Shown here: positions 37,479 to 60,426 of the stretch, in pieces
Layout of the letters: every line of letters begins with the position of its first letter
Numbering within the stretch: position 1 is the stretch's first letter
IMG/VR virus record: IMGVR_UViG_3300037067_015039
Span: 1 to 64,000 of that record
DNA length: 64,000 nt
Reading direction: 5' to 3' (one strand)
Source of the DNA: a virus
Lineage: Duplodnaviria; Caudoviricetes
Made by a program: the position numbers and the translations under genes
Notes under the pieces: generated by a model
Seen by the model: only the letters and a program-made list of their open reading frames with translations
What the model was told of the DNA's origin: nothing
Database searches by the model: none

Positions 37479-37712
37479 CTAATCCTTTGGCGCGGCTGGC
37501 AGAATATAGAAATTGCGCCATTCCCCGCAATTTACACCAAACAAAATATCTTGGTTTTTCCAGACTTCCAGCCGGCCATTAATTTCACTAACTGTAATCT
37601 GGTTTGCATGCGCAATTTCCTGCGAACTACCGTCTCGGAAAAAAATCCGAACTGCCTTATTCCCTTTAATCTGATATTCCCTTAAAAGCTTCGATTCTGA
37701 GATTTCGCTCAT
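37479..37712 (-). CDS. Hypothetical protein
   Basis: MSEISES start; overlaps the end of the upstream gene. Confidence 0.5.
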   Translation of the reverse strand: MSEISESKLLREYQIKGNKAVRIFFRDGSSQEIAHANQITVSEINGRLEVWKNQDILFGVNCGEWRNFYILPAAPKD

Positions 37713-38004
37713 CCATTGCCGCCTCCACGGCTTTCTCGACGTCCGCAAGTTGTCCAAGACGACGAGACACTTCCACCTTATGCCAATGTTTAAAAGTAAC
37801 AGAATTGACCATACGTTCTAATGCTGCTTTTTTGTTTTGAGCTTGAGATCTGAATTCGCGTCCTTCGCCAAAAGCGCCAGACGCTATATGCGTGATGCGG
37901 ACTCCGTTTTGATTGGAGTTTTGATGCTGGCCGCCAGGGCCACCTGTGCAGAAGGTGGCAATTTTGAAATCCTTTTTTGTCAGACTAAATAAAAGTTTTC
38001 TCAT
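37666..38004 (-). CDS. Stand-alone GGQ peptidyl-tRNA hydrolase domain (RF-1 family, PrfH/ArfB-like)
   Basis: TFCTGGPGGQHQN...GVRITHIASG......RSQAQNKKAAL. Confidence 0.92.
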   Translation of the reverse strand: MRKLLFSLTKKDFKIATFCTGGPGGQHQNSNQNGVRITHIASGAFGEGREFRSQAQNKKAALERMVNSVTFKHWHKVEVSRRLGQLADVEKAVEAAMDERNLRIEAFKGISD

Positions 38005-38069: not shown

Positions 38070-38423
38070 TTACTGACCCTTGAGTTGCTCTTCAAGACGA
38101 GCGATTTCGTCCTTGAGAGCTTGACGCTTCTCTTCGGCAGGCAGAAGAGCTTCCAACCGGGATTTCTTTTCACGAAGCATCTTTTGCAACCGATCAGCCT
38201 GGCTCAGGGAGATTTCCTTACGGATATCACGCATCTTAGCATCGAGCCATTCAGGCTGCTCGACATTGAGGGTTTTGAACTCTTCCTGAATCATACGTCC
38301 GACTGCGGACAGAGTTACAAGATCCTCCAGGGCAAGACCCTCGGTTTCGAACTTCCGAATCTCGTCTATCAAATACATCGACATAATCTGACCTCCTTTC
38401 TTAGTCTTCTTGATTGCCATCAC
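38070..38423 (-). CDS. Coiled-coil protein directly downstream of Ro60
   Basis: Likely start MSMYL after AAAGGAGG; all-helical. Confidence 0.7.
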   Translation of the reverse strand: MMAIKKTKKGGQIMSMYLIDEIRKFETEGLALEDLVTLSAVGRMIQEEFKTLNVEQPEWLDAKMRDIRKEISLSQADRLQKMLREKKSRLEALLPAEEKRQALKDEIARLEEQLKGQ

Positions 38424-39927
38424 TGAACGCCTCCGACAATTTCAAAAGTGGAGTTGCCATAATCTCATCCACCAAAGAGTAGGGATTGGTCCGCATGCTT
38501 TGGACCAGGTTTGGTATACTGTAATAATCGATATCAATACCGAGTTCAAAAACTTGCAAATCAAACCCGTTCTTCTTCATGCTCTCGGCAAATTCCTGAT
38601 CTCCCCATCCCCTGTTTTCAGCCCCACAACGATAGAAATAAACGGGGATATCCTTATCTGCAACCTGCAAAAGGCGCCGGTATTCATCGGAAAAAAATGG
38701 AGGAGAATTCTCCAGACCATCTGAGACGATCGCAATTCCGTCAATCTCAATATGACTCAACATAGCCGATCTCAATCCGCAACCAATGGAAGTCCCTCCA
38801 TTAGCATTGACATTCCGGGTCTTCTTCAAAATTTCTTCATAGCCAAACCCGGTGACATCAATCATTAACGGAGTCTGATCGAAGAAAGTAAGGGTAACGC
38901 TTCCCTTAACCATCTTCGCCAAAGTTCCCGCCACATGTCTGGAAGCCTCGATGCATTGAGACATTGATCCCGACTTATCACCGAGAATCAGCCAATTGCC
39001 CTCAATGCTCATATTCTGAATCTGCTTCTCCTGGACTGCATGGAGCTTGGCTTTCAGTTTTTCATCCCCAATCGCTTCCGCGGCGCGGGTAGTCTTCAAG
39101 ACGTTTTTCTTAGAAACAGCCGCCCGTTTAAGAGCATCCTCAAAAGCAGCACGAAGCGCCGGAACTTCTTTGACGCCCAATTTCTCCAGCATTTTAGTGC
39201 TGGTGACGACTTCTGTCGGGCTCATACGCTCAATAAGCGCAAGAACTAAATCAGGATCCTTTATTTTATTTCCGAGCGCCCCATGTGCTATCAAGAACGG
39301 GATCTTCCGTTCAAGAATGGTTCCCGCGGCTTCTTTTGAACTCATATTCCGCAGGTTTGCGACTGCCTCAAAAATGCTTCCTTTAGGAAGAGGAGATCTG
39401 ACCGGCTGCCGGCCTTCCGCTTTTGCTTTCAATCTTTCTTCCAGGGTGTGTCCAAAGAGAACGATATTCACCCGATCAGAGCCAGGTTTGACATCAGCTA
39501 GGGAATAGAGTTCCTTGAGAACCGCACGGTGCTGGATCGCGGTGAAATCCCATTTCTTACCTTCCTTCATGTGGAGGTAATCCGCAATCACCCTTTTGAG
39601 TTGGCGAATATGGCCAAGCGGCCGGACATCCAGAGCGAATCGATACGCCTTCAACAACTCCCGTGGATTCAGGAAAGTCAAATGAGCAAGACTGTTCTCG
39701 ACAAGTTCTTGCGGAAATCCAGGAACCGTTAAACTGACGATAGGCAATGCCGCCTTCGCATCCCTAATCTGGCCATGGGTACGATCCCAAGCAATAAGAT
39801 GAGCCAGAAAATCAGGTTCATTCTGAGCCGCAAGCTGTCCTATTGCGAGGTATTCACGGAGTTTCCCATGAGGAGATTTCGTGAGTTCTGAGATAATTTG
39901 GTTCTTGGTTACTTTGACCTTTTCCAT
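38401..39927 (-). CDS. Ro60/Rsr-like TROVE + vWA RNA-binding protein
   Basis: 508 aa; helical N-terminus (EPDFLAHL..W....GQIRD); C-terminal vWA with MIDAS DKSGS, GGTS and IVSDG.EN; adjacent to the Y-RNA-like array. Confidence 0.85.
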   Translation of the reverse strand: MEKVKVTKNQIISELTKSPHGKLREYLAIGQLAAQNEPDFLAHLIAWDRTHGQIRDAKAALPIVSLTVPGFPQELVENSLAHLTFLNPRELLKAYRFALDVRPLGHIRQLKRVIADYLHMKEGKKWDFTAIQHRAVLKELYSLADVKPGSDRVNIVLFGHTLEERLKAKAEGRQPVRSPLPKGSIFEAVANLRNMSSKEAAGTILERKIPFLIAHGALGNKIKDPDLVLALIERMSPTEVVTSTKMLEKLGVKEVPALRAAFEDALKRAAVSKKNVLKTTRAAEAIGDEKLKAKLHAVQEKQIQNMSIEGNWLILGDKSGSMSQCIEASRHVAGTLAKMVKGSVTLTFFDQTPLMIDVTGFGYEEILKKTRNVNANGGTSIGCGLRSAMLSHIEIDGIAIVSDGLENSPPFFSDEYRRLLQVADKDIPVYFYRCGAENRGWGDQEFAESMKKNGFDLQVFELGIDIDYYSIPNLVQSMRTNPYSLVDEIMATPLLKLSEAFSDGNQED

Positions 39928-40129: not shown

Positions 40130-40298
40130 AACTTTTCGTCCCATGTGCTATAGGCGCTGCGTCGTTTTAGCCCTGTTATGCCTAATTTGGGCCACTCAGA
40201 CAGCACATGGGACTTCCGATGGTCCCCACTACGGCTCTTATAGCCCCAATCCTCGAACCTTGGGTGGGTGTTGCCGGGCTATCCGACCATCTAAAATC

Positions 40299-40433
40299 TG
40301 GCTGCAAAGTCGATTCCGGAGTTGTCATGTTGCCCTACCATTGGGCGAATCCGGCATAAGGTGGAGCCGGATTCTGGATTCGAACCAGAACACTCATTGC
40401 TGAGTTCATGTAACCGTTTTCAGTGTGCAGCCA
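40299..40433 (-). ncRNA. Y-RNA-like unit Y3 (YrlA-like permuted tRNA mimic keeping CCA)
   Basis: UGGCUGCA/UGCAGCCA stem; order is T arm, acceptor 3' strand + U-CCA, loop, acceptor 5' strand, D arm. Confidence 0.85.
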
Positions 40434-41246: not shown

Positions 41247-41819
41247 CTACTTGATTACCCGCTTTGCGAGATAATCAACAAACTTATTAGGATCCATCCC
41301 GCGCTCTGCGCACCAGATAAACGGATCCTGCGAACCTTTATCCTTGTTGCATGATTTGCAGGACGTCAGATAGTTCGAAGTATTATTCTTCTTTTCGTCC
41401 ATTTCGAGAGGGATGAAGTGATCAATCGTCATAAGAGCTTCACCCATCTTTTTCCCGCAATACATGCATTTGAAACCATCGGCCGCCCAAACCTTTTGTT
41501 GGATCGAGCCTGATATTTCATATCTCACCTTTCGTTGGAAGATCTTGGGGTTTCCAACAAGTATTTCCGGATCATCAGAGCGGTGAATGAAATCAGACCA
41601 TTCTTCTACTGTAAGTTCTCTCCATTCGCTATAAGCACATATATCCATGCCATTATTATTGGCTCGGTTAAGAACTCCAGGAAGGGCCAGAATCATGCTC
41701 GAACCACCCCCTGTAAGAAGAATGCCACTAATCTTAACCAGTGACCCGATATCCCCATACATAACCGGGCGATTTCGCATTTCCATCAAATAAAACCGAT
41801 CACCGCTACTCTTGGCCAT
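41247..41819 (-). CDS. HNH endonuclease within the RNA array
   Basis: DGFKCMYCG...TIDHFIP...NYLTSCKSCNKDKG. Confidence 0.9.
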   Translation of the reverse strand: MAKSSGDRFYLMEMRNRPVMYGDIGSLVKISGILLTGGGSSMILALPGVLNRANNNGMDICAYSEWRELTVEEWSDFIHRSDDPEILVGNPKIFQRKVRYEISGSIQQKVWAADGFKCMYCGKKMGEALMTIDHFIPLEMDEKKNNTSNYLTSCKSCNKDKGSQDPFIWCAERGMDPNKFVDYLAKRVIK

Positions 41820-41836
41820 CTCTACCTCTTAAAAAC

Positions 41837-41968
41837 TGGCGTCAAGTCGATATGCTTTATTTCGCGCTCTAACCAGACTGAGCTACCCGGACGCATACGC
41901 GCCCGGGGTTGGATTCGAACCAACGACCTCGGCATTGGAATTGCATGTAAGCCTACCAGTGAACGCCA
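41837..41968 (-). ncRNA. Y-RNA-like unit Y6 (YrlA-like permuted tRNA mimic)
   Basis: UGGCGU/ACGCCA stem; GUUGGUUCGAAUCCAAC T arm; closed acceptor; UAGCUCAGUCUGGUUAGAGC D arm. Confidence 0.88.
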
Positions 41969-41982
41969 TTACTATAATTGCT

Positions 41983-42109
41983 GTTCCCTGAAAGTCGCTC
42001 AGCTTTTTAAGGATTGAATAATCGGATTTGAACCGATCACACACTGATTTAAATTCAGTTGCTCTACCAAATGAGCTATATTCATGTACGCTGAACAGTG
42101 TCAGGGAAC
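41983..42109 (-). ncRNA. Y-RNA-like unit Y7 enclosing a non-permuted tRNA cloverleaf (anticodon UUA)
   Basis: GUUCCCUGA/UCAGGGAAC stem; D arm, ACUGA-AUUUAAA-UCAGU, T arm in normal order. Confidence 0.82.
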
Positions 42110-57603: not shown

Positions 57604-60426
57604 TTTTCCTTTAACCATAGCTTTCGGCTTAGGTCCGTCATTTTGTCACATGCATCAATATATTTCTTTGAAACCGCTATAATTTCAGCATTGCACGTCT
57701 GGAGATTTTCCATAACTGCGTTTGCTCTTTTGGATAAAGCCCCTGACTTTTCGATTTCCACTAATATAAACTTTTCAAAATCAACAATAGATTTAGCCAA
57801 TTCATAAATCGAAAGAGATGACTTTACAAACATTTCCGCCCATTCCAATTCTAATGTTTCGTTATTCATAGCCATTCCTCCAATTTACTGCTTTCCGACC
57901 CAGGACGCCGTTGGCCCCCCGCGCTCGTGATTTATGCGTATTTTCTTTCTTTTTCTCATTTTTGCCAGATTTTGCCTTAATTTTCTGACTTTTCGATGAA
58001 AATTCCGCATTTTTGAAGCGGTCCCGTGAGCGCACGAAATATGGATCCCAACTACCCTGTTTTGAAAAGTCGAAATCAAGAAGCTCTGCAACTGCATGAT
58101 GCAAATTTTGCGCTTTTTGCTGAATTTCCAGCCATTTTTTCTCTTTATAGGGGTCCGTGATCCCATAATAGAGCTTTAGGCGATATTTCACGACATCATC
58201 GCGCTTCAAACTGCATACTACTTCCGCAGAGGCTTTGGTAATAAACGCATTCCCGGTCGGACGCCAGGCGCCGCGGCTGAATTTCTCAATTACCCACACT
58301 CTTGGAGTCTTCATCGTTTTCCTTTTTCGGTGGAGCAACCTCTCTCACGCCGACTAATTTGCAAATTCCCCACATCCGTAGGTCCAAGCCGGCCTTTTTA
58401 TAGCACTGATGCCAGATTGCCTCTTTTAGGATGCTTCCTGGAGACGGTACATTCAAAAGAGTTGGAGGTTCAGGGATTTCAATTGGCCCAACATCTTCAT
58501 TCTCTCCGCACAATGGACACGAATAAATCAGGAATGCTTGCATTATTCCCCATCAAAAGCGAAAAAGCGTTTAATCGATAGCCATATGCGCCAATACATT
58601 GGAGTCCTGGAAACCTGATAATTTAAAACAACGCCGAAAAGTTCATTTTCGTCGGCCATGACGGTGATTTTTACTTTATAAAAATTATCATCCACTTTTA
58701 CGGGATCACATCTTTTGTTCCAAATTATCTTACCGGCAGCGGATTCTCTCTCAACCAAACTTATTAATGCTGGTGGAAGCTTAATAAAGGCCGATTCGCC
58801 TGGATTGAGAATTGTATTGCGCCCTTGATCGATAATTTTCAATTGCCACTCCTACTGGATTGTAGTTTTTCCCATCCCATGTTGCTTCTTGCCCAACTCA
58901 GCTTGCTTAGCCATTTGGGACCAGAAATCGGCCAGAATATGATAAGTGGACGCCTGGGCTTCCAGGGACATGATCTGAAGAAATAAAGGATCAATAAGAG
59001 TCATAAAACTTACCTCTCCCGATTTCTTCAATTCCTTTATAGTGGTCATGGCAAAGTAATCACCCAGTTTTGGAGACATATGTTCATGCCATTTCTGTTT
59101 GAACTCATTCATGAATTGGTTTCTTCCCGGGTCTTTGTCTTTGCCGGGTTGCATTCCAGCGCATTCTTCCCAAAACCGCTTATTATTCTCGATCTGCGGC
59201 ATTTTGAGACTCTCTTTCTTTCTGGTATGAAACTTATCCTTCATGAATTTGACCAATTTAAACATTCAGTTTCTCCCTTTGCCCTTCGGCAATCAATTTG
59301 GCAATGAACTTGCCGGCGTCTTCATAACTCCAGGCGTGAATGAAATTTTTTCCAACCGTGCTCGTTGCATCCGGGAAGATCGTTTTCCCTTCGCCTTTTA
59401 CGATTGTTTCCGACCAGTCGATATTGATCACGTGGCTTCGCCACCCGATGATGAATCGGCCAATAGAAGTCGTCACTTTGAACCATGGCTTGTCCTGGCA
59501 ACACCAATCGGAACAATAACCATTCGGAATCTCCTCAACGTAGATTGGTTTCGGAAAGAGATTGATAATTTCCGATCGTTCAATTTTTCTAGTTTCTGCA
59601 CGTTGCGGATCCCGGCTGACAGTCTCCTTGGCGATAATTTTCTTGAGTTCATCACACTTATTGCTAATTTCCCTGGTCTCATAGGGAGTGAGTTCTCGTC
59701 CGGTTCTAACAAATACCTTGAAGCCTATAACACCAAAAGATGAAACAGACTCCTGATAATGAACCAGTTTATAATCTACTAGAGAATTTCTATCATCCAT
59801 GCTTAGTTCTCCCTAATATTTGGGGCGTCGGTGATTTTCTGTTCAACCCGATCAATTTTCTCTGCCGCAGCCCCGCCGATCTCTGTTCTGATTGTGTAAA
59901 GCTCCTGGAAGAGGTAGATTGCCATTTCAACAACAGTGACCGGCTTCTTCCCGGCCTGATTCACATGTTGATCTAATTCGCCGAAATGGTTCCCATGCTC
60001 GAAAGTATAACCGTTCGGGGTTTCAACAAACTCCGTTTTTTCTACCTCGAAGACGTCCGGGAAGAGTTCACGAATAGAGTTTTCAATCTCTAAAAATTGG
60101 TTATACATGACATAGTTAGCGTCTTCTAAATTGCTCAATTCCTGCTGCAATTCAGAATTTCTGTTCTCAACCTTCATTTTTTCGACAGTTAATTTACTGA
60201 TTTCAGCGTCTTTTTGAGCGGCTAATTCCCGCCATTTGCCGAAATATCGCATAGCGCCATCCATTTTGATGACTATAGCTCTAAACTTTTCCGGATCTGA
60301 TTTCTCAAAAGCCTTTCCAACTTCTTCTGAAATTTTGTATCTCAAATTAACCTCCAGAACTTCCGAACCCATCAGCCCCGCGGTTAGTGGGTTCGAGTTT
60401 ATTGACTTCTTCCAGGACTGCTTCAT
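57600..60426 (-). CDS. Run of hypothetical genes (57600..57875, 57862..58338, 58286..58543, 58543..58842, 58852..59265, 59258..59800, 59803..60426)
   Basis: Coupled minus-strand ORFs; 59258..59800 has an IPNGYC...PWFKVTT..G.F.IGWR..VI.IDW motif. Confidence 0.55.

What the first reader, a model, noticed from the sequence alone, without database searches (positions are those of the whole stretch)
40299..40433. Circularly permuted tRNA mimic that keeps discriminator + CCA in its acceptor loop
Seen: Y3 reads variable-arm hairpin (ACUCA-GCAA-UGAGU), T arm (UCUGG-UUCGAAU-CCAGA), AUCCGGC-U-CCA, a 6-nt linker, GCCGGAU, then D arm (GCCC-AAUGGUA-GGGC). Known: YrlA RNAs have a tRNA-like domain with a loop-closed acceptor stem; permuted tmRNA genes are matured by removing such a linker to give a two-piece chargeable RNA. 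Inference: Y3 could be opened by RNase P and 3' trimming into a two-piece, CCA-ended, anticodon-less RNA tethered to Ro60.
Basis: partly seen in the sequence, partly recalled or inferred. Interest (0 to 1): 0.72.

Follow-up and report, generated by a model that had tools for sequence, protein, structure and literature searches.

The report
Phage Y RNA with built-in CCA
A small phage RNA that docks on a Ro60-like protein carries an inside-out tRNA body whose closed acceptor end still spells the tRNA tail (U-CCA), a layout that recurs far above chance in related phages and suggests, without proving, that the loop is cut open as already shown for one mycobacterial Y RNA.

Summary
On the minus strand, 40433..40299 folds (z = -4.0) into an 8-bp closing stem, a 5-bp/GCAA hairpin, a canonical T arm, a 7-bp acceptor hairpin whose 10-nt loop reads U73-CCA-CCUUAU, and a D arm.

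It is unit 3 of a seven-unit Y-RNA array. It ends 372 nt upstream of a 508-aa protein that Pfam TROVE misses but whose model matches whole Ro60 structures.

The proposed opening by RNase P is not new. M. smegmatis YrlA is cut there in vivo and ends in CCA (PMC4201824).

What I add:
- Among 41 non-redundant related phage units with a 7-bp acceptor hairpin and a loop of 7 nt or more, 17 have CCA exactly at positions 74-76. About one is expected, and no CCA starts beyond loop position 3.
- The same layout occurs in cultured phages Bxz1, G and CcrColossus.
- The other units are sealed by UUCG/GNRA-type loops.

Against the reading, the two nearest Y3 orthologues read UCCU and UCUU, and no cleavage data exist.

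Verdict: a real YrlA-type tRNA mimic. Two-piece maturation is plausible (about 0.45) but unproven.

The scan had already noted CCA in closed acceptor loops on other phage DNA.

The parts
40299..40433 (-). Y3, the whole Y-like RNA unit (135 nt)
   Evidence: Fold z = -4.0. Partial YrlA RF02553 match at 40332-40390: 20.4 bits, E = 0.8 for the 4.5-kb region searched and E = 0.0046 for the genome.
40426..40433 (-). 5' strand of the 8-bp closing stem (UGGCUGCA)
40299..40306 (-). 3' strand of the closing stem (UGCAGCCA)
40407..40425 (-). 5' half of the shared handle: CACUG ... UACAUG
   Evidence: The same motifs appear in all seven units of the array (read).
40307..40312 (-). 3' handle motif CGACUU
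   Evidence: Shared by all units and by related loci.
40392..40405 (-). Hairpin ACUCA-GCAA-UGAGU in the variable-arm position
40373..40389 (-). T arm UCUGG-UUCGAAU-CCAGA
40366..40372 (-). Acceptor 3' strand AUCCGGC (positions 66-72)
   Evidence: It changes together with its partner strand in relatives: ATCCCCC/GGGGGAT and ATCTGGC/GCCAGAT.
40362..40365 (-). Discriminator U73 followed by C74-C75-A76
   Evidence: Family-wide enrichment.
40356..40361 (-). 6-nt linker CCUUAU. The predicted RNase P cut lies between U40356 and G40355.
   Evidence: Sequence. The cut site is an inference from the M. smegmatis precedent.
40349..40355 (-). Acceptor 5' strand GCCGGAU (positions 1-7)
40332..40346 (-). D arm GCCC-AAUGGUA-GGGC
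40326..40329 (-). CAUG that pairs with the CAUG of UACAUG. This stem takes the place of the anticodon stem and joins the tRNA body to the handle.
38401..39927 (-). 508-aa Ro60-like protein (HEAT-repeat ring plus vWA domain), the presumed partner
   Evidence: No Pfam TROVE hit. AF2 model pLDDT 83. Foldseek hits to human, Xenopus, D. radiodurans and Thermus-phage Ro60: E from 2e-10 to 5.5e-7, TM 0.5-0.6 over about 500 columns.

Best explanation
Y3 is a YrlA-type Y RNA of a 109-kb phage. It has two modules: a helical handle that docks on the phage's divergent Ro60 protein, and a circularly permuted tRNA body. In that body the anticodon stem is replaced by the connection to the handle, and the acceptor helix is closed by a 10-nt loop.

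The acceptor helix has the tRNA length (7 bp stacked on a 5-bp T stem). The loop reads U73-C74-C75-A76 plus a 6-nt A/U-rich linker that ends in U(-1) before G(+1):C72. I therefore infer the following steps:
1. Host RNase P cuts 5' of G40355.
2. Host 3' exonucleases trim the linker back to A40362.
3. The result is a 72-nt and a 57-nt piece that stay base-paired on Ro60 and expose a free, tRNA-like CCA end.

Shown: the structure, the Ro60-fold neighbour, and the family-wide placement of CCA. Inferred: cleavage, trimming, and whatever the free end then does.
For: Structure and context:
- Helices and tRNA signature nucleotides are all present.
- There is a partial YrlA covariance-model match.
- The neighbour has a Ro60 fold.

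Precedent:
- M. smegmatis YrlA is cut at the RNase P site in its acceptor loop in vivo and by M1 RNA in vitro.
- Its 5' half ends in CCA, and both halves co-precipitate with Rsr.
- The authors name the 7-bp acceptor stem as the determinant (PMC4201824; 10.1101/312249).

Family data from 71 related phage loci:
- There are 61 non-redundant permuted units with 7/7 acceptor pairing, against 3 hits (counted at the looser 6-of-7 threshold) in shuffled DNA.
- Loops fall into two classes: 20 short seals of the UUCG/GNRA type and 41 long loops.
- In the long loops, CCA starts at loop position 2 in 17, at position 1 in 2, at position 3 in 2, and nowhere else.
- Base counts are C74 32/41, C75 25/41, A76 23/41.
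- Position +1 is G in 36 of 41, and position -1 is a pyrimidine in 34 of 41.
- Loop G content is 9% overall and 9% in the linker part.

Further points:
- The leader preferences resemble those of the 322 canonical tRNAs in the same loci.
- NCCA units occur in 11 of 18 module clusters.
- They are no closer to canonical tRNAs than the other units (Mann-Whitney p = 1.0), so they are not simply young copies.
- In one lineage of six phages with Ro60 52-77% identical, NCCA is kept while the acceptor pairs covary and the linker changes in length and sequence.
- The two halves of Y3 are predicted to stay together: -50.9 kcal/mol for the dimer against -29.7 for the separate pieces.
- The same layout is present in cultured phages: Bxz1 has loop GCCACAAACC, Bacillus phage G has ACCA+21 nt, and CcrColossus has ACCA+30 nt.
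Against: - There are no RNA-end, expression or binding data of any kind.
- The Y3 orthologues in the two nearest phages lack the full CCA: UCUUUUCUUUUUAUUAU at 88% Ro60 identity and UCCUUUUUAUUAU at 79%. More distant Y3-type units are sealed by CACG or AUCA.
- All four canonical tRNAs of this phage, and 280 of 322 in the relatives, encode CCA. A permuted copy would therefore inherit NCCA by descent.
- A third of the units are sealed, so a free end is not needed for every unit.
- In Y3 only 6 nt join A76 to G1. Whether RNase P can bind such a tight loop is untested.
- The enrichment statistic treats related sequences as independent.
Confidence: 0.45

Rival explanations
1. Y3 stays a closed, one-piece YrlA-type tRNA mimic. 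The U-CCA is only a leftover of the tRNA gene or genes from which the module arose, for example the junction of a tandem tRNA duplication (3' half + NCCA + spacer + 5' half). It is drifting away.
For: - Phage tRNAs here encode CCA.
- The three closest Y3 versions read UCCA, UCCU and UCUU, which looks like decay.
- Loops in the family form a series: NCCA+spacer, then degenerate loops, then tetraloop seals.
- Most characterised YrlA RNAs are thought to stay closed (10.1101/312249).
Against: - NCCA persists across Ro60 divergence down to 39% identity and in 11 of 18 module clusters.
- NCCA units are not more similar to canonical tRNAs than the others, and no near-identical donor tRNA was found.
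- Conservation is graded C74 > C75 > A76, and -1/+1 preferences accompany it. These are features of RNase P substrates, not of neutral decay.
Confidence: 0.3
2. Y3 stays closed, but the looped-out NCCA is itself read. The unit would act as a decoy or tether for a protein or RNA that recognises the tRNA 3' end, such as RNase P, the CCA-adding enzyme, 3' exonucleases or a host tRNA-targeting defence nuclease. Ro60 would hold it in place.
For: - The positional conservation of N73-CCA is the same evidence as above.
- Y RNAs are known tethers between Ro60 and effector nucleases such as PNPase (PMC4201824; PMC12135203).
- The array offers several different tRNA-like heads.
Against: - Known readers of the CCA end need a free 3' OH or an extended single strand. 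A 7-10-nt closed loop constrains this (established knowledge, not tested here).
- Linker length varies from 3 to 21 nt in this family and reaches 30 nt in cultured phage CcrColossus, which is unlike a fixed binding loop.
Confidence: 0.15
3. Y3 is a permuted tRNA gene matured into a working tRNA by circularisation and re-opening, as in Cyanidioschyzon. Alternatively it is a two-piece tmRNA.
For: - The order of the halves is that of permuted tRNA and tmRNA genes.
- Rfam gave a weak cyano_tmRNA hit on the neighbouring unit Y4 (14.9 bits).
Against: - Y3 has no anticodon loop.
- It has no tag reading frame, and ARAGORN finds no tmRNA.
- Position 3:70 is C:G, not the G:U of tmRNA.
- The ends are locked in the shared Ro60 handle.
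Confidence: 0.02

Closest known systems
M. smegmatis YrlA (Chen et al. 2014, PMC4201824; Wang et al. 2018, 10.1101/312249)
   Same: - A Y RNA encoded upstream of Ro60 on the same strand.
- A permuted tRNA-like module with a 7-bp acceptor stem closed by a loop.
- That RNA is shown to be cut at the RNase P site, nibbled, and to end in CCA, with both halves remaining Ro60-bound. This is exactly the fate proposed for Y3.
   Different: - There the CA is added after transcription. Y3 encodes the full CCA.
- The handle motif differs: GNCGAA there, CACUG/UACAUG/CGACUU here.
- The Ro60 partner here is too divergent for Pfam TROVE to detect.
- Y3 is one of seven units in a phage array.
- I could not fetch the M. 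smegmatis sequence.
YrlA-like RNAs of cultured phages (Mycobacterium phage Bxz1, Bacillus phage G, Caulobacter phage CcrColossus; phages listed as Y-RNA carriers in PMC4201824 and PMC12135203)
   Same: - They have the same T arm, 7-bp acceptor hairpin and D arm order.
- The acceptor loop starts with N73-CCA. Bxz1 95733-95858 has GCCA+6 nt, the same 10-nt layout as Y3. Phage G 405233-405319 has ACCA+21 nt. CcrColossus 109153-109249 has ACCA+30 nt.
   Different: - They score 20-36 bits on RF02553, also below the cut-off.
- Their handles and Ro60 proteins belong to the classical TROVE type.
- I found no text that remarks on the encoded CCA. That is only an absence in the papers held here.
S. Typhimurium YrlA (Rfam RF02553; structure in 10.1101/312249)
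   Same: A Ro60-bound, L-shaped tRNA mimic with T, D and acceptor-like arms and a closed acceptor loop.
   Different: It has a 6-bp acceptor stem and a short loop, carries no CCA, and is not cut by RNase P.
Two-piece (permuted) tmRNA of alpha-proteobacteria and cyanobacteria
   Same: The gene order is T arm, acceptor 3' strand, CCA, intervening segment, acceptor 5' strand. The intervening segment is removed to give a two-piece RNA with a chargeable end (established knowledge).
   Different: Y3 has no mRNA-like tag, no G3:U70, and no ARAGORN or Rfam tmRNA match. Its partner is Ro60, not SmpB.

Membership tests
YrlA (Rfam RF02553) | Covariance-model score at or above the gathering score of 69 bits | tested here: not met
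   Y3 scores 20.4 bits over model positions 30-81 only. The best unit in the array, at 41833-41969, reaches 42.7 bits. Known phage YrlA-like units also fall below 69 bits.
YrlA (Rfam RF02553) | Encoded within 4 kb of a Ro60 gene and on the same strand (criterion of Chen et al. 2014) | tested here: met
   Y3 ends at 40299. The Ro60-fold ORF starts at 39927 on the same strand.
YrlA (Rfam RF02553) | tRNA-like module in the order variable region, T arm, loop-closed acceptor stem, D arm, with tRNA tertiary nucleotides | tested here: met
YrlA (Rfam RF02553) | GNCGAAN0-1G motif in the 5' strand of the Ro60-binding stem | tested here: not met
   No such motif is in the Y3 handle, read by eye. The family uses CACUG...UACAUG and CGACUU instead.
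YrlA (Rfam RF02553) | Bound by Ro60 and modified by TruB/DusA | not testable with these tools
   Needs immunoprecipitation and modification mapping.
RNase P-opened two-piece YrlA (M. smegmatis type) | 7-bp acceptor stem stacked on a 5-bp T stem | tested here: met
   AUCCGGC/GCCGGAU, 7/7 Watson-Crick pairs
RNase P-opened two-piece YrlA (M. smegmatis type) | Single-stranded leader before G+1 and a 3' N73-CC(A) | tested here: met
   U(-1)/G(+1):C72 and U73-CCA. Only 6 nt link the two, so fitness as a substrate is not established.
RNase P-opened two-piece YrlA (M. smegmatis type) | Two halves with the predicted ends detected in vivo | not testable with these tools
   No transcript data are available here.
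   CCA is not kept in the two nearest Y3 orthologues, which read UCUU and UCCU. It is strongly enriched across the family, in 17 of 41 long loops.
Two-piece tmRNA | Tag reading frame, G3:U70, detection by ARAGORN or Rfam tmRNA models | tested here: not met
Permuted tRNA gene (Cyanidioschyzon type) | Complete anticodon arm | tested here: not met
   No 7-nt anticodon loop is present in window Y3.
Ro60/TROVE protein (for the 508-aa neighbour) | Pfam TROVE domain | tested here: not met
   No TROVE hit even at E <= 10. The only signal is VWA_CoxE at E = 0.0086.
Ro60/TROVE protein (for the 508-aa neighbour) | HEAT-repeat ring plus C-terminal vWA fold | tested here: met
   Foldseek matches whole-length Ro60 structures 9nen, 9l5y, 2nvo and 1yvr with E from 2e-10 to 5.5e-7.

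The most novel reading that the evidence does not exclude
The opened units are not merely tRNA-shaped. After RNase P cleavage their free CCA ends would be aminoacylated without any anticodon, so the phage Ro60 particle would carry charged acceptor helices.

Several relatives, including cultured phage CcrColossus, have the full alanine/tmRNA acceptor code: G1:C72, G2:C71, G3:U70, A73, CCA. Y3 has a glycine-like set: G1:C72, C2:G71, U73. That identity assignment is from memory of E. coli identity rules and was not tested.

Such particles could feed into ribosome rescue, or could bait host enzymes that attack charged tRNA.
Probability: 0.1. Interest if true: 0.85.

Novelty: new variant of a known kind. 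Interest (0 to 1): 0.5.

Why it matters
What the tRNA-like module of bacterial and phage Y RNAs does is still open. Only one case, M. smegmatis YrlA, is known to be opened into a CCA-ended two-piece RNA, and it has been treated as an exception.

Here a large clade of phage Ro60/Y-RNA loci shows two distinct designs: sealed units (stable tetraloops) and openable units (7-bp stem, encoded N73-CCA, disposable linker). This suggests that opening is a regular, selected option.

The same layout occurs in cultured phages (Bxz1 on M. smegmatis, CcrColossus on Caulobacter, G on B. megaterium), so the question can be tested at the bench directly.

For Y3 alone the gain is modest. It is one more member, and its CCA is not kept in its closest relatives.

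Tried and rejected
- Rfam at gathering thresholds finds nothing at Y3.
- PHROGs and NCBIfam give nothing for the Ro60-like protein.
- A sequence search of solved structures gives nothing for it.
- Recent capture from a phage tRNA: no canonical tRNA in 72 loci matches either half of Y3 or of any other unit closely. The best joint score is 35 of 49, and Y3 scores 26 of 49.
- 'NCCA units are young copies': rejected by the rank test.
- 'NCCA hits are junctions of adjacent tRNA genes': units inside ARAGORN tRNAs were excluded, and none of the 17 has an upstream partner for its 3' strand. One CcrColossus Rfam hit (59385-59440) was such a junction and was dropped.
- A search for more Y3 orthologues by D-arm pattern returned mostly canonical tRNAs and only the two relatives already known.
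- The metagenome scan returned the 88% relative again.
- Fetching M. smegmatis YrlA by a published primer found nothing.
- No CCA-adding enzyme is encoded in the phage.
- The conserved 117-aa neighbour is helical with no fold or family match.
- The reviews PMC10870794 and PMC6047535 are not held.
- The pair counts are circular for pairing, because the units were selected by pairing. Only the variety of pair types is informative.

Full report
**What is there**

The finding lies on the minus strand. Reading 40433 to 40299 gives, in order:
- an 8-bp closing stem (UGGCUGCA / UGCAGCCA);
- CACUG, a short imperfect helix, then UACAUG;
- a 5-bp hairpin with a GCAA loop;
- a T arm UCUGG-UUCGAAU-CCAGA;
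- a 7-nt strand AUCCGGC;
- the loop U-CCA-CCUUAU;
- the complementary strand GCCGGAU;
- UC, then a D arm GCCC-AAUGGUA-GGGC;
- CAUG, which pairs back to the CAUG of UACAUG;
- CGACUU and the closing strand.

The unconstrained MFE fold finds these helices. The energy is -50.2 kcal/mol against -34.4 +/- 3.9 for shuffles, z = -4.0, and 0 of 200 shuffles fold as well. Rfam's YrlA model matches the T/acceptor/D core at 20.4 bits, far below its cut-off of 69.

**Context**

Y3 is one of seven co-oriented units between 42109 and 39951 that share the same handle motifs. One of the units scores 42.7 bits on YrlA.

The array ends at a 508-aa ORF (39927..38401) that has no Pfam TROVE hit. More than 870 metagenomic homologues exist. 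An AlphaFold model built on 47 of them (pLDDT 83) matches full-length Ro60 structures from human, Xenopus, D. radiodurans and Thermus phage phiLo. Foldseek E-values run from 2e-10 to 5.5e-7, with TM 0.5-0.6 over about 500 columns.

The record is a complete 109-kb phage. No cultured phage carries a close relative of this Ro60. The nearest genome bins are Acidobacteria and a WWE3 MAG, on short contigs.

**Is the CCA more than chance?**

For one loop the chance is about 1 in 40. I therefore fetched 71 related phage loci. I scanned them for a T arm followed directly by a 7-bp hairpin and a D arm, and excluded anything inside an ARAGORN tRNA.
- This gave 82 non-redundant units, 61 with 7/7 pairing. 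Shuffled DNA gave 3 hits.
- Nearly all lie upstream of the Ro60 gene and on its strand.
- Loops are of two kinds: 20 short seals (UUCG, GNRA, CUUG and similar) and 41 loops of 7-20 nt.
- In the long loops, CCA starts at position 2 (that is, positions 74-76) in 17 cases, at position 1 in 2, at position 3 in 2, and at no later offset.
- The expected rate is 0.025 per offset.
- Base counts are C74 32/41, C75 25/41, A76 23/41, and N73 a purine in 29/41.
- Position -1 is a pyrimidine in 34/41. The first base of the 5' strand is G in 36 of 41. The linker part of the loops is 9% G.
- NCCA units occur in 11 of 18 module clusters.
- None has an upstream partner that would make it an ordinary cloverleaf. 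Fifteen of the 17 are bracketed by a perfect outer stem of 7 nt or more.

The binomial P of about 4e-17 ignores relatedness, but the spread over clusters makes the conclusion safe.

**Relic or selected?**

The phage's own four tRNAs, and 280 of 322 in the relatives, encode CCA. A permuted copy would therefore inherit NCCA, which makes 'relic' a serious rival.

Against a pure relic:
- No unit closely matches any canonical tRNA in the loci.
- NCCA units are no more tRNA-like than the others (rank test p = 1.0).
- The feature is found in loci whose Ro60 is only 39-60% identical to the window's.
- In six phages with Ro60 52-77% identical, NCCA is kept while acceptor pairs covary and the linker changes. 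The linkers there still share some similarity, so this point is moderate.
- Conservation is graded C74 > C75 > A76.
- The -3/-2/-1 preferences resemble the leaders of the canonical tRNAs.

For the relic reading in Y3 itself:
- The orthologous unit reads UCUUUUCUUUUUAUUAU in the 88% relative and UCCUUUUUAUUAU in the 79% relative.
- More distant Y3-type units carry ACCAUAU, CACG or AUCA.
- Only U73, C74 and the UUAU before G1 are shared by the three close phages.
- Partial CCA would be tolerated if the host CCA-adding enzyme completes the end, as happens in M. smegmatis. That is an assumption.

**Mechanism and precedent**

Chen et al. 2014 showed the following for M. smegmatis YrlA:
- It exists in cells as two Rsr-bound halves.
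- The 3' half starts exactly at the RNase P site.
- The 5' half carries an added CA, so that it ends in CCA.
- M1 RNA cuts the transcript at that site.
- They attributed this to its 7-bp acceptor stem.
- The Salmonella and Deinococcus RNAs are not cut.

Wang et al. 2018 restate this and consider most YrlAs closed.

Y3 meets the sequence requirements: a 12-bp acceptor/T stack, G+1:C72, U-1 and U73-CCA. Predicted products are 72 nt (40433-40362) and 57 nt (40355-40299). Their predicted dimer is about 21 kcal/mol more stable than the separate pieces. Whether RNase P accepts a loop in which only 6 nt join A76 to G1 is untested. The phage encodes no CCA-adding enzyme.

**Cultured phages**

Searching the YrlA model in four cultured phage genomes and reading the hits shows the same layout outside this clade.
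- Bxz1 95733-95858, between tRNA-Met and tRNA-Cys, has CGCUCCG-GCCACAAACC-CGGAGCG. That is N73-CCA plus 6 nt, the same as Y3.
- Bacillus phage G 405233-405319 has ACCA plus 21 nt.
- CcrColossus 109153-109249 has ACCA plus 30 nt.
- Myrna has ACCCAU.
- Other units in these phages are sealed.
- Cyanobacterial chromosomal relatives of the Ro60-like protein have sealed loops without CCA.

I found no paper text that remarks on the encoded CCA. The two main reviews were not available.

**Side lead**

G3:U70 is the commonest wobble pair in the acceptor helices, found in 9 of 61 units; no other position and orientation exceeds 3.
- Five of the six long-loop units with G3:U70 carry NCCA. Four of these have G1:C72, G2:C71 and A73, which is the alanine/tmRNA acceptor code. 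Fisher p = 0.066, not significant.
- The CcrColossus unit has the same set.
- Y3 does not: it has C3:G70 and U73.

**Verdict**

Y3 works like, and by architecture belongs with, YrlA-type Y RNAs, although it fails Rfam's score and lacks the GNCGAA motif. Opening into a two-piece CCA-ended RNA is plausible and has precedent, and I put it at about 0.45 for Y3. A sealed RNA with a relic CCA is about 0.30, and a sealed RNA whose CCA is read in place is about 0.15.

Other notes of this scan had already recorded CCA in closed acceptor loops on other phage DNA. I treated them as leads only.

Noticed in passing
L017:4157-4211, L026:3883-3947, L030:3228-3292, L072:3868-3926; JX100810 109153-109249 (-): These permuted Y-RNA units combine G1:C72, G2:C71, G3:U70, A73 and an encoded CCA, which is the alanine/tmRNA acceptor identity set. 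G3:U70 is the most frequent wobble pair in the family's acceptor stems, found in 9 of 61 units.
   Followed up: partly
AY129337 95733-95858; JN638751 405233-405319; EU826466 92715-92778: YrlA-like units of cultured phages Bxz1 and G also start their acceptor loops with N73-CCA. Myrna reads ACCCAU. All lie outside ARAGORN tRNAs.
   Followed up: partly
window 38070-38423 (-): A 117-aa ORF overlaps the stop of the Ro60-like gene. It is found directly downstream of that gene in 49 of 71 related loci. It is all-helical and has no family or fold match.
   Followed up: partly
window 41247-41819 (-): A 190-aa HNH protein sits inside the Y-RNA array. It is present upstream of Ro60 in 33 of 71 loci, and its identity tracks that of Ro60 (80 vs 88%, 72 vs 79%, 60 vs 60%). 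It behaves like a component of the module rather than a roving homing endonuclease.
   Followed up: partly
window 37666-38004 (-): A 112-aa RF-1-domain protein (ArfB/PrfH-like peptidyl-tRNA hydrolase domain) lies just downstream of the Ro60 module. It is present in only 6 of 71 related loci.
   Followed up: partly
window 40134-40296 (-): The spacer between units Y2 and Y3 folds into two long hairpins, one with a 12-bp stem GUCCCAUGUGCU/AGCACAUGGGAC (z = -2.6). It has no Rfam match. Its start is conserved in the 88% relative.
   Followed up: partly
L001:5378-5504, L003:4655-4776: The nearest orthologues of Y3 have no hairpin before the T arm. Instead they carry a 5-bp/7-nt anticodon-arm-like hairpin after the D arm, with loops CUCAUAA and AUUCAGA. 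The window's 'anticodon-less' form is therefore a recent rearrangement within the lineage.
   Followed up: no
window 41983-42109 (-): ARAGORN's 'tRNA-Stop (tta)' at 42011-42085 is a non-permuted cloverleaf held inside the same Y handle. Its 3' end reads U-CCU, not CCA. Other notes of this scan already cover it.
   Followed up: no
L136:2339-3400: A Moorena (cyanobacterial) chromosome carries three near-identical tandem permuted units upstream of a 29%-identical Ro60-like gene. Their sealed loops read GCUAUUU.
   Followed up: no
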